Shown here: piece by piece, positions 10,430-63,047 of the stretch
Position numbering within the stretch: position 1 is the stretch's first letter
How the letters are laid out: the number at the start of each line of letters is the position of its first letter
Virus record (IMG/VR): IMGVR_UViG_3300035210_000102
Location: 28,354-92,353 of that record
Length of the DNA: 64,000 bases
Reading direction: 5' to 3' (one strand)
Source of the DNA: a virus
Lineage: Duplodnaviria > Heunggongvirae > Uroviricota > Caudoviricetes
Made by a program: the position numbers and the translations under genes
The notes under the pieces: model-generated
Database searches by the model: none
What the model saw: the letters and a program-made list of their open reading frames with translations, nothing else
What the model was told of the DNA's origin: nothing

Positions 10430-10468
10430 GCGCCTTTCACTCCTTGCGCGTTGTGTGCATACCCTATG

Positions 10469-12836: not shown

Positions 12837-12957
12837 CCTGGGTTCTCATCATCTTCCTGAGTAACTTCGCGACATCCGTCGATTTTGACTCAAAGGAAGC
12901 CTGCCATGCCGCGCAAAAGGCGATCACGCAAATCAAGAACGGCAACCCGTCCTCGGT

Positions 12958-15385: not shown

Positions 15386-16092
15386 CCGTCGCTCATATCA
15401 ACCAATTCCGGTTTCTCCCCGCCCTCAACTTTATGCAACGTCCGCTCATCGCCGATTGGTTCATTTGGCGCGATGACGTGCAATATCAGCCGAAAGACTG
15501 GGAAAACCGAAACAAGATCAAGACGCGCGACGGCTGGATGTGGCTCACCGTGCCGATGAAGAAACAGCCGATCGGCGTTCCGATCGGCGAGGCGGAGATT
15601 GATAATTCGGTCCCCCGGTGGCGCGGTAAGATGCTGCAATCTCTGATCTGCAACTATGCGCGCTCGCCCTATTATGATGAATTTATGCCCGGCTTTGAGG
15701 AAATCCTTTCCGAGGATTGGCGCTATCTGGCAGACCTGAATTTGGCGCTGTTTGATTGGCTGCGCGGGGCCTTCCGCTTTCCGCTCAAATGTCGCTTCGT
15801 CCGAGCTTCCGAGCTGGGCTGCACCGGCGACAAGGATGATATCCTGATCGAAATGTGCAAGAAGGTCGGCGCCACGACGTACCTATCGGGCGCTGAAGGG
15901 CGTAATTACAACCGGCCGGAACGCTGGACCGAGGCAAACATCGCCCTGACCTACCACGACTACACTTATCCGATTTACCCGCAACAGCACGGCGAATTCG
16001 AGCCATGGATGTGCGCGCTTGATTTGCTGCTCAACTGCGGCGGACAGCGCGGAAGGGAAATCCTGGAGCAACCCATGAATTTCACATCCTAA
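15382..16092 (+). CDS. WbqC-like family protein
   Basis: HINQFRFLPALNFMQ...WRDDVQYQPKDWENRNKI...WLTVP matches the WbqC pattern seen in O-antigen/nonulosonic-acid clusters. Confidence 0.6.
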   Translation: MTVAHINQFRFLPALNFMQRPLIADWFIWRDDVQYQPKDWENRNKIKTRDGWMWLTVPMKKQPIGVPIGEAEIDNSVPRWRGKMLQSLICNYARSPYYDEFMPGFEEILSEDWRYLADLNLALFDWLRGAFRFPLKCRFVRASELGCTGDKDDILIEMCKKVGATTYLSGAEGRNYNRPERWTEANIALTYHDYTYPIYPQQHGEFEPWMCALDLLLNCGGQRGREILEQPMNFTS

Positions 16093-16470: not shown

Positions 16471-16548
16471 CGCGGGGTAGCGCAGCTTGGTCAGCGCGCG
16501 TGGCTCATAACCACGAGGCCGTGAGTTCAAATCTCACTCCCGCAACCA
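16471..16548 (+). tRNA. tRNA-Met (anticodon CAT), initiator-like with a C1:A72 mismatch
   Basis: cgcgggg...ctcataa...ttcaaat...cccgcaacca aligns closely to bacterial tRNA-fMet. Confidence 0.85.
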
Positions 16549-28887: not shown

Positions 28888-29516
28888 CGTATGCGGTTTC
28901 CAATCCTCCATTCCTGGCAGTCCCAGCTTTGGCCGGCGGCGCCAGCGGAAGCAACAAGGGTGGCAACATCTGGGTCTACAGATCGACAGATTCGATCCCA
29001 GCCGTTGTGGCCCCTTATTACTTTTCCAATGGCGCGCTCGAGGGCATGCAAGTCAGTGACGTTGTAGTCGTCATTGACACCGCAACGCCAGCCATCGCCA
29101 TTTGCAGCGTCGTGAACGCCTCTCTTTCCCTTGGCGTTTCCGTACAGCTATCCCAGGAAGCGTCCGGACTATTCGGCCCGCTCTACGTGACCAATACGCG
29201 AGCGTCGAACGGCACCGCCGGGAACATCACGCTTACAGACGCTGACGCGGGTTGTCTGATTGTGCAAGCGTCGACTGACACATCATCTCGCACCGTAACG
29301 ATTGCCAAGGGGCTCAACGCTGGCGCGCGTGCATTTCACCTTTATTCGGAACCAAGCGCTGGCGGGCTTGTCGTGACACCGGCTGCCGGCGTTACTTTGC
29401 AAAGAGCGGACGGAACGGGCGCGGTTGCGAATGCAACATTAGCTGCCGGCAGTGACGCCACCATTATGCACGTGCGCGCTGAGATTTACAAAATAACGGG
29501 AAGCTCGCTGTCATGA
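28884..29516 (+). CDS. Ser/Thr-rich protein, paralog of ORF 34196
   Basis: Shared N-terminal motif L.VPALAGG...GN.W.YR.TD.I..V....YF..G. Confidence 0.45.
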   Translation: MTYAVSNPPFLAVPALAGGASGSNKGGNIWVYRSTDSIPAVVAPYYFSNGALEGMQVSDVVVVIDTATPAIAICSVVNASLSLGVSVQLSQEASGLFGPLYVTNTRASNGTAGNITLTDADAGCLIVQASTDTSSRTVTIAKGLNAGARAFHLYSEPSAGGLVVTPAAGVTLQRADGTGAVANATLAAGSDATIMHVRAEIYKITGSSLS

Positions 29517-31288
29517 CCGGCGTTGTGACCGCCGCCGCGGCAGGCCCATCGACAATTGGCGTCACTCTGCCCGTAACCCCCGTCTGCACCTATGTTGGCA
29601 GTGCAACCTTCCCGGCCGTAGCGACGTCATGCACATACTCGGCGGCTCCAGTAGGAACGCCAGACGCCAATCGTGTTGCGGTGGCTGTCGTCACTCTTAA
29701 CGGTGAGGGCACTGTAACCATATCGAGTGTGACCATCGGCGGCGTTGCGGCGACACAAGCAGTCTACACGCAAGGGTCGACGGTAACTCACGCCGCACAA
29801 GGCATCTATTACGCATCGCTGCCTACGGGCACAACGGCCGACGTAGTCGTCACACCGTCTGCAGCTGTCGGCTATTATGTCGGTGTCGACGTCTACACGA
29901 TCACGGGCGGCGCTGTTTCGTTCGTATCCGGCACGTCAACCACTACGCCGGGCGACCGATGGGATGCGACATACTCTGTCACGACGCCGGCGGCGGGAGT
30001 TGCGATTTTCGGCGTGGCCGGCGCGGACAACTACGCTATTGACACAAACCTTATTACATGGAGCGGCGCGACCAAAGACCTTTACACCCACCCTGGAAAT
30101 TACATGAACCGATCGGTGGCGCACCTTGCGACACCCGAGGCGCTCACCAGTTTCCCCGTCGTCGTGGACTCGACAAACAACGCCGTGAGCACTTTTGGGC
30201 ATGGGCACACGCAGGCGGTTTTTCAGGTCAATACCGGAACCTACATTGCTCGCCTTCCGCGTGCATCCGACGCTACCCGCATTTCGTTTACAACTGAAGG
30301 TTCAACCTTTGCGCCAATGATCACCACGACGGGATCGCAGCTGATTGTCTGGCAATTCAGCGACGGCAGCGTCTCCGCCATTGGTGCTCCATCAAAGAAT
30401 TTCGGGTCTTCCAGCCAGCGGAAACACACCCTGTACGTTAAGCCTTGGTCCGCGCTGACAGACATCAACGTCGGCTATGACGCTGCAGACGGCGGCACCA
30501 ATACAATTCCCTTGCTGACGCAACAAAACGTATCTGCCGTTAGCGGCCTTCAGCTTGCTAAAACGTCTTTAAAAACGTGGGCGTCAAACTACAACCCCAT
30601 TACGCAGCTCGATTTCTCCAACTTCTCTGCCATCACCGACATAGAGTGCTATGGGTGTTCGTCTCTTACATCCATAAATCTAACCGGAACATCCGCAGTG
30701 AAGCGCGTTGCTGTAGAAGGCGGCCGGTTAACATCCTTGGACCTGAGTCAGTCCCCTCTTTTGGAAGACCTTCGCGGCGCGGTGCAGACCAGCGCGTCGT
30801 ATCATATCAATTGGGGGGCGACCGGCACACACTCATGGCACGTGTGCATTCGCGATAACCCCCAGTTTACAGGCGATCTCCCATTGCCGCAATTGACGGC
30901 TGTCTCCCAGCTGTGGATTTGGGGCATGGGGCTGAGTGGCACCCTGACCCCGAATTCAAATTTCCTCACAAGCGTGCTGGCGCATTATAACAATTACACG
31001 AGTGCAAACTTTTCCGGAAGGTTTGCCGCCGGCACCAACGCTCAGCTGCAAATGGATCACAACCAGCTCACGAGCATAAACATAGACAATTGCCCGGGCC
31101 TGAGCTGGGTTATTCTTCAGAATAACAACTTTAACCAAGCGGCCGTCGACTACATTCTAGCGACGCTGGACTCATACAACACAAATAATGGCACGCTTAA
31201 TATTGCAGTTAACTCCGTGCCATCCGCAACAGGCATAACCCACGCGAACAATCTAACCGCAAGGGGTTGGACTATTACCCGCGACTAA
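29513..31288 (+). CDS. virion-associated protein with C-terminal leucine-rich-repeat (LRR) domain
   Basis: The C-terminal ~250 aa show LxxLxLxxNxLT periodicity (LTSINLTG..., LTSLDLSQSPLLEDL, LTSINIDNCPGLSWVILQNNNF). The N-terminus is S/T-rich, like ORF 26024. Confidence 0.5.
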   Translation: MTGVVTAAAAGPSTIGVTLPVTPVCTYVGSATFPAVATSCTYSAAPVGTPDANRVAVAVVTLNGEGTVTISSVTIGGVAATQAVYTQGSTVTHAAQGIYYASLPTGTTADVVVTPSAAVGYYVGVDVYTITGGAVSFVSGTSTTTPGDRWDATYSVTTPAAGVAIFGVAGADNYAIDTNLITWSGATKDLYTHPGNYMNRSVAHLATPEALTSFPVVVDSTNNAVSTFGHGHTQAVFQVNTGTYIARLPRASDATRISFTTEGSTFAPMITTTGSQLIVWQFSDGSVSAIGAPSKNFGSSSQRKHTLYVKPWSALTDINVGYDAADGGTNTIPLLTQQNVSAVSGLQLAKTSLKTWASNYNPITQLDFSNFSAITDIECYGCSSLTSINLTGTSAVKRVAVEGGRLTSLDLSQSPLLEDLRGAVQTSASYHINWGATGTHSWHVCIRDNPQFTGDLPLPQLTAVSQLWIWGMGLSGTLTPNSNFLTSVLAHYNNYTSANFSGRFAAGTNAQLQMDHNQLTSINIDNCPGLSWVILQNNNFNQAAVDYILATLDSYNTNNGTLNIAVNSVPSATGITHANNLTARGWTITRD

Positions 31289-33343: not shown

Positions 33344-34183
33344 TTGACCATGGCTGACTCAGCCTTCGTCACCCAGTACCGCAAGGAACACATTGCAGCG
33401 TTCGAGCAGACTTATTCTCTCCTGCGCGCGACGTGTGTTCGCGAAGCGGTTATAAAGGGCAATCAGGCAGTATTCCTGGTAGCCGGCTCTGGCGGTATGG
33501 CCGCCACATCTCGCGGCGTCAATGGATACATTCCATTCGCGACCGTTAGCAACGTGCAAAGCACAGTAACGCTTACCGAATTCCATTCGGCATTTGAGCG
33601 CACTGGCTTCAATATTTTTGCGTCTCAGGGTGATCAGAAAAAGATCATGCAATCGGCTTCGGTTGCAGTCCTGAACCGAAATATTGATGCTGTGATTACC
33701 GCACAGCTCGACACGGCCACCACAACCACAGGCACTGCCACCACGGCTAATTTGCCTATGGTTATCCACGCACGTAGTATCCTCGGCAACAACGCCGTCC
33801 CGCTTTGGGAAGAGGATAATATGTTTGCGATCATCACACCGGCGTTTGAAGGTTATCTCATGCAGGCCACAGAATTCGCTTCTGCGGACTATGTAGAGGT
33901 TAAACCTTTTGCTGGTCCCGCAAAGCAAATGCGGCGCTGGATGGGCGTAAATTGGTTCGTGCATCCCAACCTCACCGGAAAGTCGACTACAAGTGAGAAA
34001 TGTTACATGTACCACAAGAACTCTATTGGCCATGCTGCAAACAGCACGGAAATGGACGTAAAGGTGGACTATGAAGCAAAACAGGACTTGTCCTGGTCTC
34101 GCGCTAGTCTTTTCCATGGCTCGCTGTTGCTGCAACAGACTGGTATTGTCCAGATGCTGCACGATGGCTCGGCTTACGCATAG
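33344..34183 (+). CDS. major capsid protein (candidate)
   Basis: Strong RBS, a 264-bp upstream leader and two rho-independent terminators downstream. The size and position are typical of a highly expressed coat gene. Confidence 0.5.
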   Translation: MTMADSAFVTQYRKEHIAAFEQTYSLLRATCVREAVIKGNQAVFLVAGSGGMAATSRGVNGYIPFATVSNVQSTVTLTEFHSAFERTGFNIFASQGDQKKIMQSASVAVLNRNIDAVITAQLDTATTTTGTATTANLPMVIHARSILGNNAVPLWEEDNMFAIITPAFEGYLMQATEFASADYVEVKPFAGPAKQMRRWMGVNWFVHPNLTGKSTTSEKCYMYHKNSIGHAANSTEMDVKVDYEAKQDLSWSRASLFHGSLLLQQTGIVQMLHDGSAYA

Positions 34184-35437: not shown

Positions 35438-36079
35438 ATGGCCGATAAACTCGACATATTCAGTCGCACGCTTGTAAAGTGCGGCCAGCGCCCTTTGCTT
35501 TCGCTCAGTGACGCCCGCCCAGAACAGCGCGCTATCGATCGCGTCTACGATTCCGCAGTTGAGAAACTCATTGAAGGCGCTTTGTGGAAGTTTGCCGCGC
35601 GCACAGATGAGCTTCAACCCTCCGCTACGGTGACATCCAACTTTGGCTACCAGTACGTGTACGAGCAGCCCGAGGACTATGTTCGCATTATCCGCATCTG
35701 CGACAACGAACGCCTTCGCCCGACGCTTCGCGACTTCATGCTCGAGGGCGAGTTCATCTACGCGGACTGCAACCCACTATATTTGCAATACGTTTCGGAT
35801 GACCCGAGGCACGGCTACGATGTTGGCAAATGGACGCCATCATTCACTGATGCGCTGGTCGACGAACTCGTTGTTCGGACAGCCCCGTTTCTGATGAATG
35901 CCGATGTGCAGAAAATCGAACAGCTCGAGAAACAGGCGAAGCGCAGCTTTTATGTGGCGAAAGGAAGGGATGCGGTCAATCAGCCGGAGTGCTGGACGCC
36001 CCCCGGCCGGCTCGTTCGTGCCCGTTCTGGCGGCACACGCATCAACAATATGCGCGCTTCGGGCTACCCGTATTATTAA
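35438..36079 (+). CDS. hypothetical virion protein (possible head-tail adaptor/tubular protein A-like by size and position)
   Basis: 213-aa ORF after the capsid block. The call rests only on position and size. Confidence 0.3.
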   Translation: MADKLDIFSRTLVKCGQRPLLSLSDARPEQRAIDRVYDSAVEKLIEGALWKFAARTDELQPSATVTSNFGYQYVYEQPEDYVRIIRICDNERLRPTLRDFMLEGEFIYADCNPLYLQYVSDDPRHGYDVGKWTPSFTDALVDELVVRTAPFLMNADVQKIEQLEKQAKRSFYVAKGRDAVNQPECWTPPGRLVRARSGGTRINNMRASGYPYY

Positions 36080-37011
36080 GGCCGCAAGTGCTGATCGACG
36101 TTCATAAAAGGCATGACGCTGGACAGCATTGACTTCGGCAGCTCGCCATTCCAGCGATCGGCTTTTTTGTATTCCACGTAGGTTGGATTTGTTGAGATGG
36201 CCTTGCCTTGCGCTTCGATGGCTTTCGCTTCCGCCTCGCCTTTCAGCTGAATGCCTTTCGCGGTCGCCTCGGCTTGCAATAGCGTAGCGTCGGCCGACCC
36301 CCTTGCCTTCTCGCGTGCTGCGTTGGCCTCACCTTCCGCGGCGATCTTCACCATCTGGGCCGTCTTCTCGGCTTGCTGGCGTTGATATTCAACGGCTTCG
36401 ATGTTGGCTTTTTGTACCGCCGCATTGCCAACTGCGTTCCGGAACGACTCTTTGTATTGCAAGTCGGTGAGCTGGAAATCCACGACCTCCACGCCGAGAT
36501 GCACGGCGTCCGTCTTCAAGGTGGAAAAGATGGCATCACGAATGGAACCACGATCGCCGGCAATCTTCTGCGCGTTGGCATGCCCAAACGCCGTTTTCAC
36601 GCGGTCATTTGAAAGAGATGCCAGCCGCGACTCATAGTCCTGCACGTGTTCGAACAAATATAGCAGCCGGTCCTTTGGCAGGACGTAAAACACGGTGTAG
36701 GAAATGTCGACTTCCTGATTATCGACCGTGTAGGTGTTGGCATGCTTTGTCGGCACGAGCTCGAGAATGTCCGTGCGGTACGTATTGGCCGTCTCCACCC
36801 ATGGTAGTTTGAAGTTCAAGCCCGGGCCCGCAAGGCGTACCGCCTTACCGAATTGCGTCACGACGGCCACTTGGTTCTGCTGCACCGAAAAGTAGGCCAG
36901 TAGCCCCGTAATGATCACGAGGGCTGCGATAGCAACCCCCACAATGAGTTTGATGCGGCCCCTTCCAGGCGCCGGCTTGTGCGGGTTTCTGTAATCTGCT
37001 TCGAGTGTCAT
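36076..37011 (-). CDS. SPFH/band-7 (stomatin/prohibitin/HflC-like) membrane protein
   Basis: N-terminal TM segment, SPFH core (VVTQFGK...LPWVE...VDNQEVDISYTVFY) and a C-terminal coiled coil AEGEANAAREKARG. Confidence 0.7.
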   Translation of the reverse strand: MTLEADYRNPHKPAPGRGRIKLIVGVAIAALVIITGLLAYFSVQQNQVAVVTQFGKAVRLAGPGLNFKLPWVETANTYRTDILELVPTKHANTYTVDNQEVDISYTVFYVLPKDRLLYLFEHVQDYESRLASLSNDRVKTAFGHANAQKIAGDRGSIRDAIFSTLKTDAVHLGVEVVDFQLTDLQYKESFRNAVGNAAVQKANIEAVEYQRQQAEKTAQMVKIAAEGEANAAREKARGSADATLLQAEATAKGIQLKGEAEAKAIEAQGKAISTNPTYVEYKKADRWNGELPKSMLSSVMPFMNVDQHLRP

Positions 37012-37015
37012 TGGC

Positions 37016-37336
37016 TCACCAGTAGTAGACGTGCGGTTTCTTTGAAAGAGGCCAGCAAACCCCCTCGGGATCGTCTTGGCCGGTTAAAATGCGATGTTCC
37101 AGCCGCGCCTCGGCCGCTCGCCTTCTGCGCGAATGGTAGATGATGTCGTGCCATCGTGGGTATGCCCACCAATGGCAACGCCCAGAGCCCGCCGGCCAGT
37201 AATCGATCTCCGGATCGCGCTCGGTCCAGTGCGGCACGCGAACGGGCTTCAACCCAAGTCTCCCCCTTCTGAATGTTTCGCCGCTGCGGCGGCCCTTCCC
37301 CTGATAACGGCACTTGCCGCGCTTGTAATGTGACAT
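37016..37336 (-). CDS. hypothetical Arg/Trp/His-rich protein upstream of SPFH gene
   Basis: Co-oriented with and abutting the SPFH gene. No motif recognised, and it is not obviously NfeD-like. Confidence 0.3.
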   Translation of the reverse strand: MSHYKRGKCRYQGKGRRSGETFRRGRLGLKPVRVPHWTERDPEIDYWPAGSGRCHWWAYPRWHDIIYHSRRRRAAEARLEHRILTGQDDPEGVCWPLSKKPHVYYW

Positions 37337-37446: not shown

Positions 37447-40047
37447 ATGGCTGATGAAGCGATAAAAGCTGCCCTTGTCGCGCAGCTCAGCTGTTTCCGC
37501 ACGCCGCTCTGCGCCTCGATTAGCTCGACCAATCTGACGATTGACGTCGAGGTCCGAGGATTCGGCCTCCCCCCAATCTACACAGCCAAATGTGCCGGCG
37601 GATGCGGAAACAGCGCATCCAACGCAGGAGACGTGCTTATGGTCGACAATTATAATCGCCTCCAAGGCGCGACGGCAACAACTGTCGGCAAGATGCCGGT
37701 GCGTGCTGCGACAACCGAAAATATTACGCTGTCGGGCTACCAAACTATAGACGGGCAAACCTTCGGCTCATCCGACGAAAGCGCCTATCACAATATGCGC
37801 GTACTTGTGTGGAAACAGTCGGACCCGAAGCAAAATGGAATTTATTTGGCAAATTCCGGGGCCTGGACGCGCACGCCTGACTTTGACGGCAACACGGACT
37901 TCGTATGCGGCAGCACGGTCTATGTTACAAACGGCACCATCTATGGTGGCCAGTTGTTTGTTGTTTCGTCAGCCGACCCGCAAAGCGTCGGCGTGAACAA
38001 CATCACGTTCAGCCAGTTTACGATTACGAAAAACCTATCGGTCGAATACTTCGGCGTAACCCCCGGCCTGCCTTCATCTGGTAGTGCTTCTGCAGTGGCC
38101 GCCGCCAACACAAGCGCGATGACCGCGGCCCTGTCCTATTGCGCGTCAAACGGCATCAGTCAGATATTCGCGCTTTCGCAGTATTATGTTTTCAGCGGCG
38201 CCGGCATCCGCATCCCCGATAGCGTGACCATCAAGGGCGGCGGCGTTGGCTTCTGGGACCCCGGCAGCACATCGCGGCAGAAGACCTGGGCCGGCACGAG
38301 CTTTATCGCCTACGGGACAGGGAGCAAGGTCGAATCGGTGTCCGGCATCACCGACCGTTCGGCCACGGGCGGCACGCGCACCGATGGCGTAAACACCTAC
38401 AAGCTCACAAACCTTATGAACACGGATGGTTCGGGCACAACGCCGGCAACCGCCAAAGCCTTCTCGGCCTTTGTCGCCCCACTTACCCGCGCGAGCGGCT
38501 ACTCCTACGCGTCCCATTGGGGCCTCGAGGATGTTCGCCTTGTCCCCTGGATCGGCACGGACGGCATTTCCGATTGGAATGACACAGGCAAAACCGCGCT
38601 TGCAGCGAACTGGGATGTCGGCCTCTACTCTCCGGACTCGGAATATGAGTGCTGCAAAAACGTTCAAGTTGTCGGCGATTGGCGCATTGCCGCGCTGTTC
38701 CGCGTGCAGGGCGATAATAGCGCTGCTACTGGCGCCGGCGGCGAGCGCGGCTACTACGAACGCTGCAGCTTCCAAGGATATCGAGGCGTCCTGCTTCGCG
38801 CACACGACATGTTGCCCGTGGTCGCAACAACTGTCAGCACCATCGACCTCCCCCTGACCTCTTCGAACTGGGTGCCAACTTCCGGCCAGCTTAAAACAGC
38901 CTCAACCACATATACCTATACGAACACGAGCTCTCCTGGCGGTGGCCTTCTTCGGCTGACAGGCGTTACGCCTGATCCATCATCCGTTACGGCCGGAACG
39001 CAAATGCGCGTTACCTACACGGGGTCCGGCGTCTCTGGCACGATTTTTCTTGGCTGTGAGATTCGCCCACTGATGCACGTATCTCAGCAGCCGGCGACGG
39101 CCCTTGGCTGGTCCTCGCCATCGCTCGCGCTTGAGGTCGACGGTTATCCGTTGCGCCGTTATGTGTTCATTTCCACGCGAATGATGAACCAGTCCGTTGA
39201 GCCCGGGAACACTTTCTTTGGCAACTGTTCGGACCTGGAGTTCCACGCATGCCAATTTGAAAACGGCTCTGTTATAGCGACGCCGAACTATTCCGATCAG
39301 ATTTGGGCCGCATATCCAGTAGGCGATACGCGCGGGATGATCTGGCTTCGGTGCGACCAAACGGCGGACCTAACACTATTTACACCTAGAACATTTTTCG
39401 ACTTCGACACTATATTCCCGTCATCTCGTAATTTCTCTTCGACCACTGAGGTTATTACGTCGGCCGCGACCCGCCCTCTTAGCATTCAGAACATTGGCGA
39501 CCTGACCTACAACAATACCGCAATCGGGACAATAGTCGCTCCATCGGCCTACAGCTGGTATCTAAAAGGCGGAGTCACAAATAGACTTGCCCTATTCGCG
39601 TCCGGGAATTTTGGGGCCGGCGTTGATAATACGCAAACCTTTGGCACGGGTTCACTTCGCTGGTCGACTATCTATGCCGGCACCGGCGCGATCAATACGT
39701 CGGACGAACGTGAAAAGCAGGACATTGAGGAGTTCGGCGATGCTGAGCGCCGCGTGGCTGCACGCCTGAAGCGCCTGTTGCGCAAGTTCCGCTTCAAAGA
39801 CGCCGTCACCGCAAAAGGCAATGAAGCGCGAATCCACTCCGGCGTTATCGCGCAAGACGTAATCGCAGCTTTTGACACGGAAGGCCTGGATGCTTCCCGC
39901 TACGGCCTACTCTGTCACGACGCGTGGGCGGCCGAGGCGGAAACATTCAACGAGGACGGCACTATAGCATCGCCAGCGCGCGATGCCGGCGAACGCTACG
40001 GCGTGCGCTACGAAGAACTGTTCTCTTTCATCCTGGCGGCACTTTAA
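37447..40047 (+). CDS. tailspike/tail fibre with pectin-lyase-like beta-helix and C-terminal peptidase-S74 intramolecular chaperone
   Basis: C-terminus AINTSDEREKQDIEEF...RIHSGVIAQDV...YEELFSFILAAL matches the endosialidase-type auto-cleaving chaperone domain (S-DxRxK, HxGxIAQ). The middle region is Gly/Thr/Ser beta-rich. Confidence 0.7.
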   Translation: MADEAIKAALVAQLSCFRTPLCASISSTNLTIDVEVRGFGLPPIYTAKCAGGCGNSASNAGDVLMVDNYNRLQGATATTVGKMPVRAATTENITLSGYQTIDGQTFGSSDESAYHNMRVLVWKQSDPKQNGIYLANSGAWTRTPDFDGNTDFVCGSTVYVTNGTIYGGQLFVVSSADPQSVGVNNITFSQFTITKNLSVEYFGVTPGLPSSGSASAVAAANTSAMTAALSYCASNGISQIFALSQYYVFSGAGIRIPDSVTIKGGGVGFWDPGSTSRQKTWAGTSFIAYGTGSKVESVSGITDRSATGGTRTDGVNTYKLTNLMNTDGSGTTPATAKAFSAFVAPLTRASGYSYASHWGLEDVRLVPWIGTDGISDWNDTGKTALAANWDVGLYSPDSEYECCKNVQVVGDWRIAALFRVQGDNSAATGAGGERGYYERCSFQGYRGVLLRAHDMLPVVATTVSTIDLPLTSSNWVPTSGQLKTASTTYTYTNTSSPGGGLLRLTGVTPDPSSVTAGTQMRVTYTGSGVSGTIFLGCEIRPLMHVSQQPATALGWSSPSLALEVDGYPLRRYVFISTRMMNQSVEPGNTFFGNCSDLEFHACQFENGSVIATPNYSDQIWAAYPVGDTRGMIWLRCDQTADLTLFTPRTFFDFDTIFPSSRNFSSTTEVITSAATRPLSIQNIGDLTYNNTAIGTIVAPSAYSWYLKGGVTNRLALFASGNFGAGVDNTQTFGTGSLRWSTIYAGTGAINTSDEREKQDIEEFGDAERRVAARLKRLLRKFRFKDAVTAKGNEARIHSGVIAQDVIAAFDTEGLDASRYGLLCHDAWAAEAETFNEDGTIASPARDAGERYGVRYEELFSFILAAL

Positions 40048-40050: not shown

Positions 40051-42981
40051 GTGGCCCGCGCACTTCGGTCTATCCACGCCTTCAATGGAGGCGAGGCGAG
40101 TTATGCCGCCATGGCGAGGGTGGACCAGGAGTCCATCAAGCTTGCGGCCGAGGAGCAAGTAAACCTGCTCCCTTACGTGGTGGGCAAGGCGATCCAGCGC
40201 CCCGGCACAAAGCATCTCGGATCGGCACGCATTACACCGGCACAGGGGAGTGTCAAACTTATCCCCTTCGCCCGCAACGCGGACACCACGGCGCTGTTGG
40301 AGCTCTGCCTCCGGCCGTCATCGCCATCTGTCAGCATGCGCGTTTACGACAGCACCGACACCCTTGTCTCGATCCCGGCCGTTAGTTGCACAATAGCCGA
40401 CTCGACGCTTACGGGGTCCGGATGGACTAATGCGTCGACCGGCGGCGCAACTGTAACCTACGCCGCTCCTCCCGGATGCTTGATGTATTCGTCGTACACC
40501 GGCGGCAAAGCCGTCATTTGGCAGAAGGTAACGACAGCCTCGGTTGGCACGTCACATTCGCTTTCGATCACAAACGCCAATTCGGCAAACCCGGTGAGCC
40601 TGCGCATCGGCACATCGCTCAATGGGCAAGACCTCGTTAAACTGACAAGCCTCCCGCCGGGCAATCACATCGTCAGTTTTACGCCGGCCGCCGCTGATTT
40701 CTGGGTTCAATTTGAGACGTCTGGCGGCGCGGTGCACGTAGCGGAATGCTCCATCGCATCAGCCGGGCCCTTGGTCGTGTGGGTTCCAAACCCGACAAGC
40801 TGGGCGACGGCCAATCTCGCAGACCTTCGATATACGCAATCGCTGGATGAAATCTTTATCGCCGCGGCCGATAGCCAGCAGCTCATCATCCAACACCGCG
40901 GGCCTACATCCTGGTCATTGTGTTACTACTTCACAAATGATGGTCCTTTCCAGGACACTCAGTCCGACCCGAACATCTTCATCTCGCCGAGCTCGACACA
41001 GGGCACGCCCCTGTTGACCTCAAATTACGACTTCTTCACCAGCGACAAAGTCGGGCAATTGCTGCAAATCTCGCATTCCAAAACGAATGCAGATTACTTC
41101 ATTGCGGCGCAGGGCGCCTCCACCGCACCTATTCGTGTGACGGGTATTCAGGTTGCCGGCGACCGCGAATGGAGCGCCACAATCAGCGGCACATGGGTCG
41201 GCACAATTTCCGTCGAGCGGTCCTTCAACAATCAATTTTCGGGCTATGAAGTCTACAAGCCTATGGTGGCCTCCGGAGACACTTACGTGGCCGGCTCGCC
41301 CGTTACCACAACCGTCAACGCCACGATCAGCGTTAATGATGCCAGTGACAACGCGATCGCTTGGTATCGCCTGACATTTTCGTCTTACACTTCCGGCGCC
41401 GCGACAGTGCATATCAACTATGGCGGCTTCGGCGGCACGGGCATTTGCCGTATCATCGAAGCGGTGACACCTACCACCGCTTACGCTGAAGTCTTCACGC
41501 CATTCACCGACGTTACGCCAAGCAAGGTGTGGCTCGAGGGGGACTGGTCCGACGCAAGAGGCTGGCCGACAGCCTGCGCATTCTTCGATGGTCGGCTCTG
41601 GTGGGCGCGAGACAACCAGTTCTGGGGCAGTGTCGCAGACTCGTTCTTCTCCATGGCCGTCGCGGAATCGGCAAGCACGACGACGTCGGGCACAACGATG
41701 ACCACCGACGCGAGCTCAATCCAACGCTACATCGCGACCGGCGGCACATTCGATGATGTGCAGTATATGTTGCCGTTGCAACGGCTCTTAATGGGAACTT
41801 CCGGCGCCGAGATCCCAGCCCGATCGTCAAATCTCGACGAGCCGCTTACCCCAACCAACGTCACACTGCGCGATTCGTCGAGCCAGGGCTCCGCCAACAT
41901 CCAGGCCGTCAAGATCGACAAGCGCGGCATCATGGTGCAGGGCTCGACGCACAAACTGTATGCGCTGGCCTACAACCCCTATAACCAGGACTTCGACGCT
42001 GAAAATATTTTGCGCATCAACGAGGATATTGGCTATCCGGACAACCCGGCCTATACGACCGGCTTTGTTGATCTAGCCGTTCAGCGGCAGCCTGAAACAT
42101 ATATTTGGGCGGCGCGCTCTGATGGCATTGCGGTTTGTGTTCTTTATGAGCCGGCAGAAAAGGTGCAAGCCCTCTTTCGCATCATGACAGGCACAGGCGA
42201 ATTCTCCTATGACGGAGCAGGCCAAACACCGGATGAAATCTTGCAAGTCGTCGTGATCCCGCAGACCGGCGAAGATAGCGTTTACTGGCTGGTAAAGCGT
42301 TACATTTCCGGCGTAGCCTGTTATTATATTGAGAAAATGGAAGCCCATCGCGACACGCTGACTCGCGTTTGGGATAGCACTACTCGAAAACAAGTTACAG
42401 CGCCCGGCACCCGCCAAGTCGACTCTTACGTCTATGCAACACCAGATGCCACAAACACAGTTTCCGGCCTCTCACACCTTGCGGGACGTACCGTCATGGC
42501 TTTGGGATACTCGGATGAGCGGGCGACATACGGGCCGCTGCTTAATTCAGTCGGCGGAACAACATTCACTGTCTCTGGTGCTGGCACAATTACACTCGGA
42601 GAAACCGCAAGCACCGGCGTTCGTGTAGGCATACCCTATTACGGATATTACAAATCGTCCAAACTGGTCAGTGCCACAGCCCAAGGGGACACGACGCTGC
42701 TGAAGCCCAAGAAGGTCGGCGCGATCGGTCTCTTGATGCAGGACACACACCCCGACGCGCTACTACTCGGGTCTGACTTCGACGGCATTGAAACGATGGA
42801 CCCGCTGCCGCGGATCGAAGACCTGAAGCCCGTCCAGACAAAAGGCGCCCTCCAACGCCTTTACGACAAACGCCTGTTCCCGTTCGCGAATGTCTGGGAC
42901 ACGGACGCCCGGGTTTGTATTCAGGTGCAGCCCGGCTACTCGACAACCCTTAGCCATATAGTGCTTGAACTTGAAACATGA
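40051..42981 (+). CDS. large tail/nozzle-type structural protein (976 aa)
   Basis: Sits between the tailspike and the internal-virion-type proteins. Beta-rich composition. Confidence 0.45.
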   Translation: MARALRSIHAFNGGEASYAAMARVDQESIKLAAEEQVNLLPYVVGKAIQRPGTKHLGSARITPAQGSVKLIPFARNADTTALLELCLRPSSPSVSMRVYDSTDTLVSIPAVSCTIADSTLTGSGWTNASTGGATVTYAAPPGCLMYSSYTGGKAVIWQKVTTASVGTSHSLSITNANSANPVSLRIGTSLNGQDLVKLTSLPPGNHIVSFTPAAADFWVQFETSGGAVHVAECSIASAGPLVVWVPNPTSWATANLADLRYTQSLDEIFIAAADSQQLIIQHRGPTSWSLCYYFTNDGPFQDTQSDPNIFISPSSTQGTPLLTSNYDFFTSDKVGQLLQISHSKTNADYFIAAQGASTAPIRVTGIQVAGDREWSATISGTWVGTISVERSFNNQFSGYEVYKPMVASGDTYVAGSPVTTTVNATISVNDASDNAIAWYRLTFSSYTSGAATVHINYGGFGGTGICRIIEAVTPTTAYAEVFTPFTDVTPSKVWLEGDWSDARGWPTACAFFDGRLWWARDNQFWGSVADSFFSMAVAESASTTTSGTTMTTDASSIQRYIATGGTFDDVQYMLPLQRLLMGTSGAEIPARSSNLDEPLTPTNVTLRDSSSQGSANIQAVKIDKRGIMVQGSTHKLYALAYNPYNQDFDAENILRINEDIGYPDNPAYTTGFVDLAVQRQPETYIWAARSDGIAVCVLYEPAEKVQALFRIMTGTGEFSYDGAGQTPDEILQVVVIPQTGEDSVYWLVKRYISGVACYYIEKMEAHRDTLTRVWDSTTRKQVTAPGTRQVDSYVYATPDATNTVSGLSHLAGRTVMALGYSDERATYGPLLNSVGGTTFTVSGAGTITLGETASTGVRVGIPYYGYYKSSKLVSATAQGDTTLLKPKKVGAIGLLMQDTHPDALLLGSDFDGIETMDPLPRIEDLKPVQTKGALQRLYDKRLFPFANVWDTDARVCIQVQPGYSTTLSHIVLELET

Positions 42982-43400: not shown

Positions 43401-43880
43401 ATGGCAGAATTAGCGGCAATTTCCGCGATCGCCTCAATTGCGGGCGGCGGCATTGGTGCCATGGGCGCGATGCAGCAAGGCGCGGCAGCAAAGGCGGCTG
43501 GGGAATATCAGAACAAGGTCGACATTGCGCAGGGCAAACAGGCCTTCGCTGAAAGCCAGATTCCGGAATTCAACCAGTATCGCAAAGGCGACGCTGAAGC
43601 CGGCAAGTTTCGCACAATCGCGGCGGGGTCTGGGGCCGGCGGCGGCCCGACCGTCAAAGAGCTGTACGGCCAGATGGCCAGTCTCAACGAAACGCAGGCC
43701 GACGAAGAGCTCTTCAAGGGCCAACAAAAGCAACAAGCCTACAACGTGGCCGGGGCGAACGCGCTCTATCAAGGGCAGGTCCAGAAAGACGCGTCGATGT
43801 GGAACGCGGCTGGAACTTTCCTTTCCGGCGCCTCGAAGGCCTTCGCCGGAAAGACCGGCTCAGACTTCAATTTTACTTAA
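43401..43880 (+). CDS. hypothetical internal-virion-type protein
   Basis: 159 aa, Ala/Gly/Gln-rich. Confidence 0.35.
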   Translation: MAELAAISAIASIAGGGIGAMGAMQQGAAAKAAGEYQNKVDIAQGKQAFAESQIPEFNQYRKGDAEAGKFRTIAAGSGAGGGPTVKELYGQMASLNETQADEELFKGQQKQQAYNVAGANALYQGQVQKDASMWNAAGTFLSGASKAFAGKTGSDFNFT

Positions 43881-43895
43881 TACGGGCCAACGCTC

Positions 43896-46800
43896 ATGGT
43901 TAAACTACCCGACCAATTCTCACTGGGTGAAATTCCCGATCCGTATGTTCGCGTGCCAGTTCCGACCGCGAGCGAAGTCGATGCTGGCGCGATCGGCCGG
44001 GCGATGCAGCATTTCGGCAGCGCTGTTGGCGACGTCTCCACCGCGCTCGCAAACCACCAGAACCAAAACAACGCGCTCGAGCTCGCAAAAGCCGACACCG
44101 CCTATAAGGTCGGCATCGCGGGTCTTTCGGAGTCGCTCGCAAACGACCCGGACCCCGACACGCATGTGCAGCGCTACAATGAAGGCGAGGCCGCGCTTCG
44201 GCAGCAGTCCAAGAGCATGTTCAGCAAGCCGGAAAAGGGCGATCTCTGGGAACAGCACGCAATCCCGCATGGCGTGAATACCGGAATAGGCGTCGGCCGA
44301 TACGCAAACGGGCTGATCAAGGAACGGCAGAGCGGCGAGTTTGACGACACATTCAAGTCAGCGCTGACCCACTTTTACGCCAACCCGACTAGCGAAAATC
44401 TGACAGCCCTTGAGCATCACGTCGACAATGGCGAACATTCTGGGTTGCTCAACCCGAAGACGGCGCGGCAATACCGGGCCGATATCAACTCAGCGATGAA
44501 TGGCGTCTATCTCGGCGTCGGTGCTCCAACCGCGCAACCGCAGTCAAACATGCCCGGTGGGGCACCAGGTATTGCGCCTCCGCCCGCAAACGAAACGATA
44601 GAGGCACAAGGCGGCGAGCCGACAGAACAAAAGCCAGACCAGTCGCGGCTTGTGTCCGCGCCTGCAAAGCCAACAATGCAGCCGACGCAGGTTTCGACCG
44701 CGCCGGAACAACCGGCGCAAAGTTCGGTCGACTATCTGGCGCCCTATGCTGGCAAGTCGAACATCAAAGACCTGAACCCCGATTTTCGTCAGCGCGTAGT
44801 AAGCGCACTTTCCGATATGCCGGAGAATTTACGCTCCACAATTCGCATCACCGGATATCGGAACGACCAGGAACAGCATGACGCCATCGTCCGACATCTG
44901 CGAGCAGCCGGCATGCCGGTCACGCAGGCTAATCTGGAGCGCGGCATACCGGGCGTAGTCGCTGGCCTCGATTTCAATCCCGATGGCAGCTACACCTCAA
45001 GGTCAAGGCATTCGGTGAAAGGCGAAAACGGCGATCCATCTGGCGAAGCCGTCGATATCACCGGCTCGGATGCCGCGATGGCGTGGCTGCACCGCAAAGG
45101 GTTTGGCACCCAATATGGGTTTGAGAACCCCGCAAATCTTCGCGGCTCGGACCCTGTGCATTTCCAGATGACCGGAGGCGCCGGGCAAGATTTCAGCTCG
45201 CGCACGGGCGGCGTCATTAACGCCCCCACCCGGCAAGCCATCGCTGATGTATCTGGCGCCTACGGCTTTAAGCCGGGCGTGCTGCCGTCCCTGATAAACT
45301 TGGAGTCCGGCTGGAACACAAAGAACAGCACAGGCTCATACAGCGGTCTGACCCAAATGGGCAAGGATACGTTCGATGAGGCCGGCGGTCGCTTGGCCGG
45401 ACTGACATACAGCCAATATCTGAACGCTGGCCCGGCCGACCAGATCAAGGCCTACGGCGCATGGCTGCAGCATTACGGCTTCAGCGACAAGATGCAGCGC
45501 AATGGCATCGATTTCGCCAACTTGCCGCCTGAAAAACAAGCCGCTGTCCTGCAGGCGTTTCAGTTCGGGCCCAACGATGAACGATGGATGGAGGCCGCGG
45601 GCCGGGGTGATTGGCATACGCCAGTCACCAACACTAAGCAGGCGGACGCGCTCGGCGACACGTCCCTTAGCGTTATGTCACAATATTATGGCGGGCAGGT
45701 TAGAATCGCATCCGCCCAAACTGGTACGGCAACCGATGCCAGCCGCGCCCCGCGCAGCCTGAGTGACCCTGCCCTGCCAGATGGCCCGCAGGTCGACATG
45801 TCCAAGGTTCCGGACTGGATGCGCGAACGCCGATCGCCGTTTGAGATTCAACAGCTGGAACGGATACGGCAGTCGCAAGTCGCAAAAGTCGATGATGCCG
45901 TGCGCGAGCAGGCGGAGAGCTCAATCAGAAACGACATCGCTCGGCTGAAGGACGGCGTTCCTGTTGCCAAAAACGAAGCCGGCCTCGCGTCTATCGACGC
46001 TTTGCGCGATCGCTTTCAGGGGCCGAAAGGGCAAGCCAAGATTTCGAAGCTCGGGCGCGAGTGGAATGTCGCGCAATACGAGCATAACCTCAAAGCTCCG
46101 CTCACCGGCATGAGTTACTCAGACGGCATGGCCTGGATTGCCAACAATGACCCACGGAAACTGGACAGCAAAGATTTCGATTACGAAGACGCCAAAGTCG
46201 CACACGATGAAGTGCAACACTACTTCGAGCAGCTTCACAAGGTCCGGAACGATGACGCGGCGCGGTCTGTAAGCGGCTTCCAAATCTCGAAAATGAGCAA
46301 CGGGGCAGGTATTGTCCCGCCGGCGCCGGAAGTGCAGGCCGCTATGGAAGAGGCGCGCACCGGCGGCACACGTCAGTTCGATGGCTCGATCATCCCCTAT
46401 ACCCATCAGCAACGCTGGGGCGTGCTTTTCAAGGGGCGGCTGGCAGCGCAAGAAAAAGCCGGCCTTGATGAAGGGCAGCAGCGCGTGCTTACAGTCCCAG
46501 AGTCCGAGCAGCTGCTCAACATGGATATCTCGCACATTCCGGACGGCAATCTTCTGACCGAAAAATTGGATGAGGCGGCCGCCAGAGCCAAGGTGTGGTT
46601 TGGGCCGGAAAATGCCGAGCGCGGATTGCGCGATGCCATCGCTGTGATGATGCACAAAACGGAGCAGCGCGACGCGGCCACTAACGCGCTGAGCGAACTA
46701 GCGACCTACAGAACCCTGCAGCCCGCCACGATCGCCGCTCTGCAAAACCAAAGCAAACTCGACCCGCTCTCGCAATACATTAGGCGACAGCAAGTAATGG

Positions 46801-47396
46801 GCGCGCGCGTCGATACCACCCTCCCCGTGCCGGCAGTTGCGGCAACTGGCTTCGGCGAGATGCCGCCGTCAAAGCAGGACATCAAGGATCTTCGAATGAA
46901 CCCGGCCAACTGGCGCAATTTCGATTCTCAGTTCGGCGACGGCGCCGCAGCTCGAGCGCTCATGTCGCCGGATGCCCAGTACGACAAGTCGGCCTATTAC
47001 CCCGGCAATTCAGGGGGTTACGACCGGCCAATCAGAATCGGACATCAGCTGTCCGCGGCCACCCGAAAAGAAGCGGCCAACTTTACTGGACGCAACCCGG
47101 TAAGCATCGATGAGATCAGGCAGCAAGCAGGATCGGGCGCCGATCCGATGGTTCGGCCAAGTGCGAACTACATGCCGGAGCCGGAAGCTCAAAGCCTCCC
47201 TCGTTGGGCTGGAATATCTCGTCGTGACATGCCGCAAACAGAAAAATCCAGCACTGAAGAGCCCGCAACGCCGTTTGGCGGCCACACAGCCGGCGGCTAC
47301 ACCATTGGCGGCGTCAAGCCGATCGGTAGCGGACAACGTTTTGGAGGCAAACGTTATGGCGCCTCCGCAATACCAAAAACTATGGAAGCGCAATAA
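43896..47396 (+). CDS. large virion protein with peptidase-M15 (VanY/D-Ala-D-Ala carboxypeptidase-like) and lysozyme-like regions
   Basis: ITGYRNDQEQHDAI...SRHSVKGENGDPSGEAVDI...PVHFQ resembles the M15 zinc-ligand pattern. The size and position resemble ejection-type (gp15/16-like) proteins. Confidence 0.55.
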   Translation: MVKLPDQFSLGEIPDPYVRVPVPTASEVDAGAIGRAMQHFGSAVGDVSTALANHQNQNNALELAKADTAYKVGIAGLSESLANDPDPDTHVQRYNEGEAALRQQSKSMFSKPEKGDLWEQHAIPHGVNTGIGVGRYANGLIKERQSGEFDDTFKSALTHFYANPTSENLTALEHHVDNGEHSGLLNPKTARQYRADINSAMNGVYLGVGAPTAQPQSNMPGGAPGIAPPPANETIEAQGGEPTEQKPDQSRLVSAPAKPTMQPTQVSTAPEQPAQSSVDYLAPYAGKSNIKDLNPDFRQRVVSALSDMPENLRSTIRITGYRNDQEQHDAIVRHLRAAGMPVTQANLERGIPGVVAGLDFNPDGSYTSRSRHSVKGENGDPSGEAVDITGSDAAMAWLHRKGFGTQYGFENPANLRGSDPVHFQMTGGAGQDFSSRTGGVINAPTRQAIADVSGAYGFKPGVLPSLINLESGWNTKNSTGSYSGLTQMGKDTFDEAGGRLAGLTYSQYLNAGPADQIKAYGAWLQHYGFSDKMQRNGIDFANLPPEKQAAVLQAFQFGPNDERWMEAAGRGDWHTPVTNTKQADALGDTSLSVMSQYYGGQVRIASAQTGTATDASRAPRSLSDPALPDGPQVDMSKVPDWMRERRSPFEIQQLERIRQSQVAKVDDAVREQAESSIRNDIARLKDGVPVAKNEAGLASIDALRDRFQGPKGQAKISKLGREWNVAQYEHNLKAPLTGMSYSDGMAWIANNDPRKLDSKDFDYEDAKVAHDEVQHYFEQLHKVRNDDAARSVSGFQISKMSNGAGIVPPAPEVQAAMEEARTGGTRQFDGSIIPYTHQQRWGVLFKGRLAAQEKAGLDEGQQRVLTVPESEQLLNMDISHIPDGNLLTEKLDEAAARAKVWFGPENAERGLRDAIAVMMHKTEQRDAATNALSELATYRTLQPATIAALQNQSKLDPLSQYIRRQQVMGARVDTTLPVPAVAATGFGEMPPSKQDIKDLRMNPANWRNFDSQFGDGAAARALMSPDAQYDKSAYYPGNSGGYDRPIRIGHQLSAATRKEAANFTGRNPVSIDEIRQQAGSGADPMVRPSANYMPEPEAQSLPRWAGISRRDMPQTEKSSTEEPATPFGGHTAGGYTIGGVKPIGSGQRFGGKRYGASAIPKTMEAQ

Positions 47397-63045: not shown

Positions 63046-63047
63046 TA

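What the first reader, a model, noticed from the sequence alone, without database searches (positions are those of the whole stretch)
37447..40047. Tailspike with endosialidase-type C-terminal chaperone on a phage that makes a sialic-acid-like sugar
The C-terminus carries the S74 intramolecular chaperone signature: a Ser-Asp-x-Arg-x-Lys cleavage site, HSGVIAQDV, and a YEELFSFI tail. This domain is found on endosialidases and other polysaccharide depolymerase tailspikes. Together with the nonulosonic-acid cluster, it suggests the receptor may be a nonulosonic-acid-containing surface glycan. The phage-encoded sugar might also mask or modify that receptor as superinfection exclusion.
Basis: partly seen in the sequence, partly recalled or inferred. 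Interest (0 to 1): 0.65.

Follow-up and report, generated by a model that had tools for sequence, protein, structure and literature searches.

The report
Self-cleaving beta-helix phage tailspike
This gene encodes an ordinary modular phage tailspike: a beta-helix sugar-binding and probably sugar-cutting body followed by a widespread self-cleaving folding domain, and nothing in it links it to sialic-acid-like sugars or to the phage's own pseudaminic-acid genes.

Summary
ORF 37447-40047 (+, 866 aa) ends in a true Peptidase_S74 intramolecular chaperone (Pfam 38.2 bits against a cutoff of 22). All five catalytic-site residues described for the T5 fibre are conserved in register: D727, R738, T751, S752 and K757.

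The pseudaminic-acid cluster is real (PseI passes its curated cutoff). It was found only in this phage: no Pse gene was found upstream of TerL in any of 49 related contigs, 12 of them with a full 10 kb of flank. The proposed link therefore cannot be tested and has no support.

Verdict: a new member of a known kind, of low interest. The Pse cluster and the 4710-aa DarB-like protein are the more notable features of this phage.

The parts
37447..40047 (+). Tailspike gene, 866 aa, 92.4 kDa precursor. The predicted mature part is aa 1-751 (79.5 kDa) and the released chaperone is aa 752-866 (12.9 kDa).
   Evidence: ORF; phrog_1171 tail spike, 3e-63, aa 244-866; masses.
37447..37638 (+). N-terminal 64-aa extension with four cysteines (C16, C22, C49, C53). 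It is present in this phage and in P0005 and absent from P0002 and from the L003-L006 spikes. Function unknown; possibly a docking or metal-binding peptide.
   Evidence: P0005 aligns from residue 1 with all four Cys conserved. In the P0005 contig the spike follows the 213-aa tubA-sized gene directly. AAGGA lies 8 nt upstream of the ATG at 37447. AF2 confidence is low.
37639..38031 (+). Conserved N-terminal anchor domain (aa ~65-195) of the Mtd_N-like or capsid-decoration-like beta type. It is shared with spikes that carry different heads.
   Evidence: 50-57% identity to the spikes of L003-L006 over aa 64-221 only. P0005 is 65% identical over aa 1-233 and then switches to another head. BFVD hits to 'Major tropism determinant N-terminal domain' proteins and related N-terminal fibre modules, 34-38% identity (rmsd 2.5-3.4 A for three, 5.8 A for the Mtd_N-named one). 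PDB 9nx3 capsid decoration protein, E=0.002. pLDDT 76-86.
38032..38160 (+). Linker and helical neck (helix aa 211-235) between the anchor and the beta-helix.
   Evidence: AF2 secondary structure, pLDDT 84-89.
38161..39411 (+). Right-handed parallel beta-helix body (aa ~239-655). This is the receptor-binding and probably polysaccharide-degrading domain. Residues R364, D390, Q407, R413, E433, Q443, R451, R521, H544, E563, R570, D596 and E605 are conserved across the family.
39412..39699 (+). C-terminal stalk (aa ~656-751), presumed triple beta-helix in the trimer. It contains D727 and R738, the stalk residues that complete the autoproteolytic site.
   Evidence: Sub-threshold Pfam End_tail_spike match to aa 715-751, covering only the last 37 profile positions, 16.6 bits against a cutoff of 25. 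Alignment to T5 pb1, Kp7 gp51 and AS12 gp42 starts at aa ~719-727. Low monomer pLDDT, as expected for an intertwined trimer.
39700..40044 (+). Peptidase_S74 intramolecular chaperone (aa 752-866), with nucleophile S752 and base K757. The predicted cut is between T751 and S752.
   Evidence: Pfam PF13884 at 38.2 bits against 22. PDB 3gud aligns from its residue 1 to S752. Foldseek 3gud, probability 1.00, TMt 0.55. Literature: PMC8326128, PMC4690869.
35438..36079 (+). Tail tubular protein A (gp11-like). This is context: the upstream neighbour of the spike in this sub-lineage.
   Evidence: phrog_394 tail protein, 6e-32. 41-67% identical to L003-L006, where the spike gene abuts it.
40051..42981 (+). 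Tail tubular protein B (gp12-like). This is context: it starts 4 nt after the spike stop codon.
   Evidence: phrog_376, 1.8e-99. tblastn to 'tail tubular B' of Pelagibacter phages, up to 29% identity. 50% identical to L001 with the same order.

Best explanation
The gene encodes the trimeric tailspike of an uncultured T7-like podovirus. It has five modules. (1) A short Cys-rich N-terminal peptide and a conserved Mtd_N-like anchor domain dock it to the tail near the tubular A/B proteins. (2) A helical neck follows. (3) A right-handed beta-helix binds, and most likely cleaves, a host surface polysaccharide (capsule, O-antigen or EPS) of unknown composition. (4) A C-terminal stalk follows. (5) A Peptidase_S74 intramolecular chaperone drives trimerisation and folding of the stalk. 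Once Arg738 of a neighbouring chain is in place, the chaperone cuts itself off through the S752/K757 dyad between T751 and S752, leaving a 79.5 kDa mature spike. Shown here: domain homology, conservation of the catalytic residues, the beta-helix fold, the modular anchor/head exchange and the gene position. Inferred: trimer formation, actual cleavage, enzymatic activity (about 60% as against binding only) and the nature of the receptor.
Against: No catalytic residues could be assigned by homology to a characterised enzyme, because identity to every solved beta-helix is only 8-13%, so enzymatic activity is unproven. The model is a monomer built from a 23-sequence alignment, and the stalk and chaperone have low confidence (pLDDT 36-78). 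The N-terminal domain also resembles capsid-decoration modules, so attachment elsewhere on the virion is not strictly excluded. The host is unknown.
Confidence: 0.78

Rival explanations
1. One reading: the spike recognises or degrades a nonulosonic-acid (Pse-type) surface glycan, and the phage-encoded Pse pathway modifies or masks that same receptor as superinfection exclusion, a seroconversion-like logic.
Against: The S74 domain carries no information about substrate (PMC8326128). The head is not an endosialidase fold. There is no preferential similarity to Pse-specific enzymes (rank 24 in a flat list). Head-family members occur in coliphages and other phages with different architectures. No Pse gene was found in the available upstream flank of any of 49 TerL relatives, so there is no co-variation to rely on. 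No transferase or lysogeny gene was recognised in the window.
Confidence: 0.07
2. The beta-helix is a non-catalytic receptor-binding domain that only adheres to the glycan, or it is a deacetylase or esterase rather than a depolymerase.
Against: Near-invariant Asp, Glu, His and Arg residues across 90 representatives at 31-50% identity are more typical of an active site than of a variable binding surface. The top structural neighbours are lyases, epimerases, hydrolases and proven depolymerase spikes.
Confidence: 0.25
3. The protein is a head or neck appendage (a decoration fibre) rather than a tail-tip spike.
For: The N-terminal domain hits PHROGs annotated as head decoration or virion structural protein and a solved capsid decoration protein (9nx3, E=0.002). 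S74 chaperones also occur on the GA-1 neck appendages.
Against: The gene sits between tail tubular A and B and abuts tubA in relatives. The best full-length PHROG is a tail spike at 3e-63. The same N-terminal module occurs in many proteins annotated as tail fibres.
Confidence: 0.06
4. The Pse cluster works independently of the spike, for example by glycosylating virion proteins or altering host flagellin or LPS for reasons unrelated to this phage's receptor.
For: The cluster is an insertion between TerS and TerL inside the late or structural region, and was not found in relatives. Phage PseI is at most 47% identical to any of the roughly 185,000 species genomes and is almost absent from 50,697 phage records, so it looks like an old, private acquisition. 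The spike head family is widespread without it.
Against: No transferase was identified, so no target can be named, and nothing is known about when the cluster is expressed.
Confidence: 0.5

Closest known systems
Peptidase S74 / C-terminal intramolecular chaperone domain (endoNF of phage K1F, T5 pb1 L-shaped fibre, GA-1 gp12, K5 lyase)
   Same: Pfam PF13884 is above threshold. The S-x4-K dyad (S752/K757) is present, with the stalk Arg at -14 and Asp at -25 from the serine and a Thr before the serine. The domain is C-terminal, after a stalk, and contains the HxGxxAQ and YxEL motifs.
   Different: It is attached to a different functional body from any of the founding members (beta-helix here; beta-propeller sialidase in endoNF; bullet-shaped binding domain in T5). 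Cleavage has not been shown experimentally.
Klebsiella phage Kp7 type I tail fibre gp51 (PDB 7y5s) and Acinetobacter phage AS12 gp42 tailspike (PDB 6eu4)
   Different: Identity in the body is only 11-12%. The N-terminal anchors, phage lineages and hosts are different, so substrate specificity cannot be transferred.
Uncharacterised tail-spike family phrog_1171 (coliphages YZ1, SD2, Vectrevirus DIJ06P1 and about 90 metagenomic representatives)
   Same: There is true sequence homology over the beta-helix (29-50% identity, aa ~195-680), with the same conserved Arg, Asp, Glu and His constellation.
   Different: No member has a known substrate as far as I could find. The anchors differ, and some members lack the S74 domain (P0004, P0006, P0162).
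Endosialidase (GH58) tailspikes of K1-specific coliphages
   Same: They share only the last stalk turns and the S74 chaperone.
   Different: The six-bladed beta-propeller catalytic domain and the beta-barrel domain are absent, and a beta-helix takes their place. This protein is not a member.
phiAB6 tailspike (PDB 5js4), a depolymerase of a pseudaminic-acid-containing Acinetobacter capsule (specificity from my own recollection)
   Different: Identity is 8%, and it ranks 24th among generic beta-helix hits, so no specific relationship is evident.
Seroconverting phages whose spikes recognise the O-antigen they modify (P22 gtr, Sf6 Oac, epsilon15; from general knowledge)
   Different: Those phages are temperate and encode the transferase or acetylase itself. 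Here no transferase or integrase was recognised in the window, and the phage encodes a sugar-nucleotide pathway instead.

Membership tests
Peptidase_S74 intramolecular chaperone (CIMCD) | Profile match above the curated threshold | tested here: met
   PF13884, aa 752-813, 38.2 bits against a gathering score of 22, E=1.8e-9.
Peptidase_S74 intramolecular chaperone (CIMCD) | Ser-Lys catalytic dyad with S-x4-K spacing at the N-terminal edge of the domain | tested here: met
   S752 and K757 align with T5 A(S)1264/K1269 and with residue 1 of GA-1 3gud. They are equivalent to endoNF S911/K916 (PMC8326128).
Peptidase_S74 intramolecular chaperone (CIMCD) | Stalk residues that complete the active site: Arg 14 residues and Asp 25 residues before the Ser, and Thr at -1 | tested here: met
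   R738, D727 and T751 align with T5 R1250, D1239 and T1263 (PMC4690869). R738 corresponds by spacing to endoNF R897 (PMC8326128).
Peptidase_S74 intramolecular chaperone (CIMCD) | Fold: helical coiled-coil core with a beta-hairpin, trimeric | tested here: inconclusive
   The AF2 monomer shows helices at 765-780, 783-795, 800-811 and 855-865 and strands at 822-854, but pLDDT is only 45-78. Foldseek to 3gud gives probability 1.00 and TMt 0.55. The trimer was not modelled.
Peptidase_S74 intramolecular chaperone (CIMCD) | Autoproteolytic release of the domain after trimer folding | not testable with these tools
   This needs expression of the protein and S752A/K757A mutants.
Endosialidase (GH58) tailspike | Six-bladed beta-propeller sialidase catalytic domain with an inserted beta-barrel | tested here: not met
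Endosialidase (GH58) tailspike | Cleavage of polysialic acid | not testable with these tools
   This is a biochemical assay.
Beta-helix depolymerase tailspike | Right-handed parallel beta-helix central domain | tested here: met
Beta-helix depolymerase tailspike | Modular build: a lineage-conserved N-terminal anchor and an exchangeable head | tested here: met
   P0005 shares aa 1-233 at 65% and then carries another head. L003-L006 and L090 share only aa ~61-221. P0015, P0162 and coliphages share only the head.
Beta-helix depolymerase tailspike | Encoded in the tail module of the phage | tested here: met
   The gene lies between tail tubular A (phrog_394) and B (phrog_376), and the order is conserved in relatives.
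Beta-helix depolymerase tailspike | Identifiable catalytic carboxylates or base in a groove | tested here: inconclusive
   D390, E433, E563, D596, E605, H544 and five Arg are at least 91% conserved in 90 representatives, and several neighbouring ones are about one rung apart. They were not mapped to a characterised active site.
Beta-helix depolymerase tailspike | Polysaccharide-degrading activity | not testable with these tools
   The host and the glycan are unknown.
Seroconversion-type receptor masking by the phage | A phage-encoded transferase or modifying enzyme that acts on the receptor glycan | tested here: inconclusive
   No glycosyltransferase or Maf-like family was hit among the window ORFs scanned. 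Several ORFs remain unannotated, and about 28 kb of the 92 kb contig lies outside the window.
Seroconversion-type receptor masking by the phage | Co-variation of the modifying genes with the spike specificity among related phages | tested here: inconclusive
   No Pse gene was found within the available upstream flank of TerL in 49 relatives, 12 of them with a full 10 kb. The cluster was found in one phage only, so no correlation can be computed.

The most novel reading that the evidence does not exclude
The phage-made pseudaminic-acid derivative is installed on the very glycan that this beta-helix spike reads. That would make a lytic-type podovirus carry its own receptor-editing sugar pathway, either to exclude superinfection or to keep progeny from being trapped on debris. 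Alternatively the sugar is attached to the virion or to the spike itself. The conserved arginine-rich face of the head would then be a nonulosonic-acid-binding groove shared by a large uncharacterised spike family.
Probability: 0.07. Interest if true: 0.7.

Novelty: new member of a known kind. Interest (0 to 1): 0.25.

Why it matters
As a tailspike it adds little. It is one more beta-helix receptor-binding protein with the common self-cleaving chaperone, in an uncultured podovirus lineage of unknown host. Three practical points come out of it. (a) The word 'endosialidase' in the S74 family's Pfam description ('Chaperone of endosialidase') should not be read as evidence about the receptor sugar. 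(b) The head belongs to a large uncharacterised spike family (about 90 cluster representatives, including coliphage spikes) with a strongly conserved charged constellation, and a single biochemical characterisation could annotate the whole family. (c) The spike defines the receptor question for a phage that also carries a private pseudaminic-acid pathway, and that pathway is the feature worth following up.

Tried and rejected
- Megablast of 22 kb around the gene against 50,697 phage records found no match.
- Three word-indexed homolog searches, including a profile query, returned only 8-14 proteins each. The AF2 alignment therefore stayed shallow at 23 sequences, because representatives from the exhaustive search could not be used for structure prediction.
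- An IMG/VR scan with tail tubular B as a single protein found nothing. Relatives were reached only through the spike anchor and TerL.
- Host inference from PseI failed. The best genome matches are 47% or lower and are spread over Omnitrophota, Planctomycetota, Desulfobacterota, Alphaproteobacteria and archaea.
- A literature search for the substrate specificity of the coliphage homologs (DIJ06P1, LF31P3, Vectrevirus) found nothing usable. A search for lytic phages with complete Pse pathways found only prophage-borne modifying enzymes in Acinetobacter and the Campylobacter FlaGrab protein.
- Attempts to reach the parts of the 92 kb contig outside the window, through genes at the window ends, returned only 1-4 kb contigs.
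- The promoter and terminator scan around the gene was at chance level.
- PDB sequence searches with the two other large structural ORFs found nothing for 26024-28402 and only an LRR (Internalin-J-like) match for 29513-31288.
- I considered M65 as the true start and rejected it, because P0005 conserves aa 1-64.
- I did not use the single metagenome-contig scan. With 10 kb flanks it could not cover both the Pse cluster and the spike, which are more than 20 kb apart.
Full report
OBSERVATION. The ORF at 37447..40047 on the + strand (866 aa) is present as described. Each of the three quoted motifs occurs once: SDEREK at aa 752-757, HSGVIAQDV at aa 797-805 and YEELFSFI at aa 855-862. They are not chance strings. 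Pfam Peptidase_S74 (PF13884) matches aa 752-813 with 38.2 bits against a gathering score of 22 (E=1.8e-9). A phmmer search of all PDB sequences returns six proteins, all phage fibres or spikes carrying this chaperone and all aligned to aa ~716-866: Klebsiella phage Kp7 gp51 7y5s (2.5e-21), the GA-1 neck appendage chaperone 3gud (1.5e-18), Acinetobacter AS12 gp42 6eu4, T5 pb1 4uw8, 9vvr and endoNF 3gw6. The 3gud chain begins SDERHK, exactly opposite S752.

In the residue-by-residue alignment to the T5 S1264A mutant, the residues the T5 authors assign to the proteolytic site are D1239, R1250 (from a neighbouring chain), T1263, S1264 and K1269 (PMC4690869). They correspond to D727, R738, T751, S752 and K757 with identical spacing. 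The same Ser/Lys pair is S911/K916 in endoNF, with R897 at -14 (PMC8326128). In T5 and K1F the serine is not seen in the mature protein and is thought to leave with the chaperone (PMC4690869). The expected scissile bond is therefore T751|S752 rather than S752|D753, although the phi29 structure modelled the serine on the mature side, so this remains a prediction. Cleavage would give a 79.5 kDa mature protein and a 12.9 kDa chaperone.

START CODON. The closest homolog, P0002 (63% identity), begins at the equivalent of M65, and both ATGs have Shine-Dalgarno-like sequences. However, P0005 aligns from residue 1, with about 62% identity over the first 64 residues and all four cysteines conserved (C16, C22, C49, C53). 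In its contig it follows a 213-aa gene of tubular-A size directly. I therefore keep 37447 as the start and regard the 64-residue Cys-rich peptide as an optional N-terminal module.

WHAT THE PROTEIN IS. PHROGs gives phrog_1171 'tail spike protein' over aa 244-866 (3e-63), many tail-fibre families for the C-terminus, and a separate set of families for aa ~57-231. The exhaustive HMMER search against 1.84 billion representatives confirms three independently distributed modules: aa 65-230, aa ~195-680 and aa ~680-866. It found 19,754 hits at E<=0.001, mostly to the chaperone alone.

Across 90 representatives of the head family (31-50% identity), the residues R364, D390, Q407, R413, E433, Q443, R451, R521, H544, E563, R570, D596 and E605 are at least 91% conserved. 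Several neighbouring ones are spaced by about one helix rung (18-26 residues). That would fit a single conserved face, but I could not map it onto a characterised active site.

GENOMIC CONTEXT. The window is a T7-like structural region, almost entirely on the + strand:
- small terminase, 6754-7389;
- large terminase, 18098-19666;
- portal, 20110-22827;
- major capsid protein, 33344-34183, and tail tubular A, 35438-36079;
- the spike;
- tail tubular B, 40051-42981, starting 4 nt after the spike stop codon;
- internal virion proteins, 43401-47396;
- a 4710-aa DarB-like protein, 47396-61528;
- a GH108 endolysin.

No known phage is close. Megablast finds nothing, and tail tubular B is at most 29% identical to those of Pelagibacter, Ralstonia and Xanthomonas podoviruses. 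Local BLAST of the window proteins against fetched contigs shows true relatives in IMG/VR (L003-L006, L090). They have portal at 48-58%, capsid at 56-87% and tubA at 34-67% identity (tubB 40% where it is present, in L004 and L005), and the order tubA, spike, tubB. Their spikes share only aa ~61-221 with this one and then diverge. In more distant TerL relatives, tubA is followed directly by tubB. Conversely, the head occurs behind other anchors and in other phage types: P0015 after an 1836-aa protein, P0162 next to a second pectate-lyase-like spike, and coliphages YZ1, SD2 and Vectrevirus. This is the classical pattern of a conserved anchor with an exchangeable head. A minus-strand Band_7/SPFH gene and a small ORF (36076-37336) are inserted between tubA and the spike. 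They are absent at this position from L003-L006 and from the P0005 contig.

THE PROPOSED LINK TO NONULOSONIC ACIDS. The cluster is real and of the pseudaminic-acid type. PseI scores 354 bits against its equivalog cutoff of 340. A PseB-like dehydratase (299 bits, below cutoff), a PseC-like aminotransferase, a CMP-transferase-like protein, a GNAT, a PIG-L deacetylase, a methyltransferase and WbqC are also present. PseG was not recognised. The inference from the chaperone to the receptor still fails, for five reasons.

- The chaperone is found on proteins with unrelated targets: polysialic acid, K5 heparosan, oligomannose and teichoic acid (PMC8326128, PMC4690869). In the searches here it appears on hundreds of Klebsiella and Escherichia phage spikes.
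- The only endosialidase-specific signal is a sub-threshold match (16.6 bits against 25) to the last 37 positions of the End_tail_spike profile. That is the stalk turns directly abutting the chaperone.
- The body is a beta-helix, not the GH58 propeller.
- The solved spike that I recall as specific for a Pse-containing capsule, phiAB6 5js4, is rank 24 with 8% identity.
- The Pse cluster was found in this phage only. Among 49 TerL-related IMG/VR contigs, 12 of them with a full 10 kb upstream of TerL, no Pse-pathway gene was found. PseI has only three weak matches in 50,697 phage records and at most 47% identity to any of about 185,000 species genomes, with no coherent taxon. With a single carrier there is no co-variation to test, and the host stays unknown.

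No glycosyltransferase, Maf-like protein or integrase was recognised in the window. Several ORFs are unannotated, however, and about 28 kb of the 92 kb source contig lie outside the window and could not be retrieved.

MECHANISM, AS FAR AS SUPPORTED. What is shown: a C-terminal S74 domain with a complete catalytic constellation, a beta-helix body, a lineage-conserved anchor and a position in the tail module. What is inferred from the established behaviour of the family:
- three chains associate through the chaperone, which templates the stalk;
- correct stalk folding brings R738 of a neighbouring chain next to T751/S752;
- K757 activates S752 and the chain is cut, releasing the chaperone;
- the mature trimer is mounted on the tail through its N-terminal modules, and its beta-helix binds, and probably cleaves, a surface polysaccharide to bring the virion to the cell surface.

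I put enzymatic activity at about 60%, because the conserved charged residues look like an active site but could not be matched to a known one.

COMPARISON AND NOVELTY. The closest solved analogues in overall architecture are Kp7 gp51 (7y5s) and AS12 gp42 (6eu4). The closest sequence family is the uncharacterised phrog_1171 group. The protein is a member of the S74 family by every feature that sequence can test. It is not an endosialidase. It is a new member of a known kind. The unusual aspects are minor: the spike gene sits between the tubular A and B genes in this sub-lineage, and there is an optional Cys4 N-terminal peptide.

VERDICT. Interest is low at 0.25. The reading that the phage edits its own receptor with Pse is not excluded. 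I give it about 7%, and it would be interesting if true.

Noticed in passing
window 7891-16092 (flanked by TerS 6754-7389 and TerL 18098-19666): There is a pseudaminic-acid-type biosynthesis cluster inside the packaging and structural region: a PseB-like gene, two DegT-like genes, a CTP_transf_3 gene, a GNAT, PIG-L, PseI (above its equivalog cutoff), a methyltransferase and WbqC. No Pse gene was found upstream of TerL in any of 49 TerL-related viral contigs, and PseI is nearly absent from 50,697 phage records. Phage PseI is at most 47% identical to any species genome. PseG and a transferase were not recognised.
   Followed up: partly
window 47396-61528 (+): A 4710-aa ORF follows the internal virion protein genes. 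It has FtsK_gamma, a weak methyltransferase match, Strawberry-notch-like AAA_34 plus Helicase_C_4 domains, and a DarB-like antirestriction PHROG match (1.6e-42). It is probably an ejected anti-defence 'polyvalent' protein of unusual size for a podovirus.
   Followed up: partly
window 36076-37336 (-): A Band_7/SPFH membrane protein gene (311 aa, Pfam 1.5e-25) and a 106-aa ORF lie on the opposite strand, inserted between tail tubular A and the spike. They are absent at this position in relatives L003-L006 and in the P0005 contig, which looks like a moron insertion.
   Followed up: partly
window 37447-37638 (+): The first 64 residues of the spike carry four cysteines (C-x5-C ... C-x3-C) that are conserved in P0005 but absent from P0002 and from the L003-L006 spikes. 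This may be a metal-binding or docking peptide. AF2 confidence is low.
   Followed up: partly
window 8736-10600: ORF 8736-9449 matches only the first ~40 positions of the DegT aminotransferase profile. The following ~1.1 kb has no recognisable + strand domain, and the 343-aa minus-strand ORF 9446-10477 has no Pfam hit. This may be a degenerate gene or an unrecognised enzyme (a PseG substitute?) within the Pse cluster.
   Followed up: no
window 5287-5362 and 16471-16548 (+): There are two tRNA genes: tRNA-Thr(TGT), and tRNA-Met(CAT) in the TerS-TerL interval just downstream of the Pse cluster.
   Followed up: no
window 29513-31288 (+): A 591-aa protein in the head-to-tail region has a leucine-rich-repeat segment (Internalin-J 3bz5, E=8.7e-8; Pfam LRR_4 weak). 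It may be a second adhesin or virion-associated binding protein. The neighbouring 792-aa ORF 26024-28402 has no recognisable homolog.
   Followed up: partly
L091-L132 versus L003-L006 and L090 (IMG/VR relatives): In most relatives tail tubular A is followed directly by tubular B. Only the sub-lineage nearest the window phage has a spike gene between them, so the spike position is a sub-lineage trait.
   Followed up: partly
window 61601-62716 (+): An endolysin with a GH108 domain plus PG_binding_1 is followed by two small ORFs (62716-63425). The same three genes occur on short contigs from two JGI samples, 3300034349 and 3300034160.
   Followed up: no
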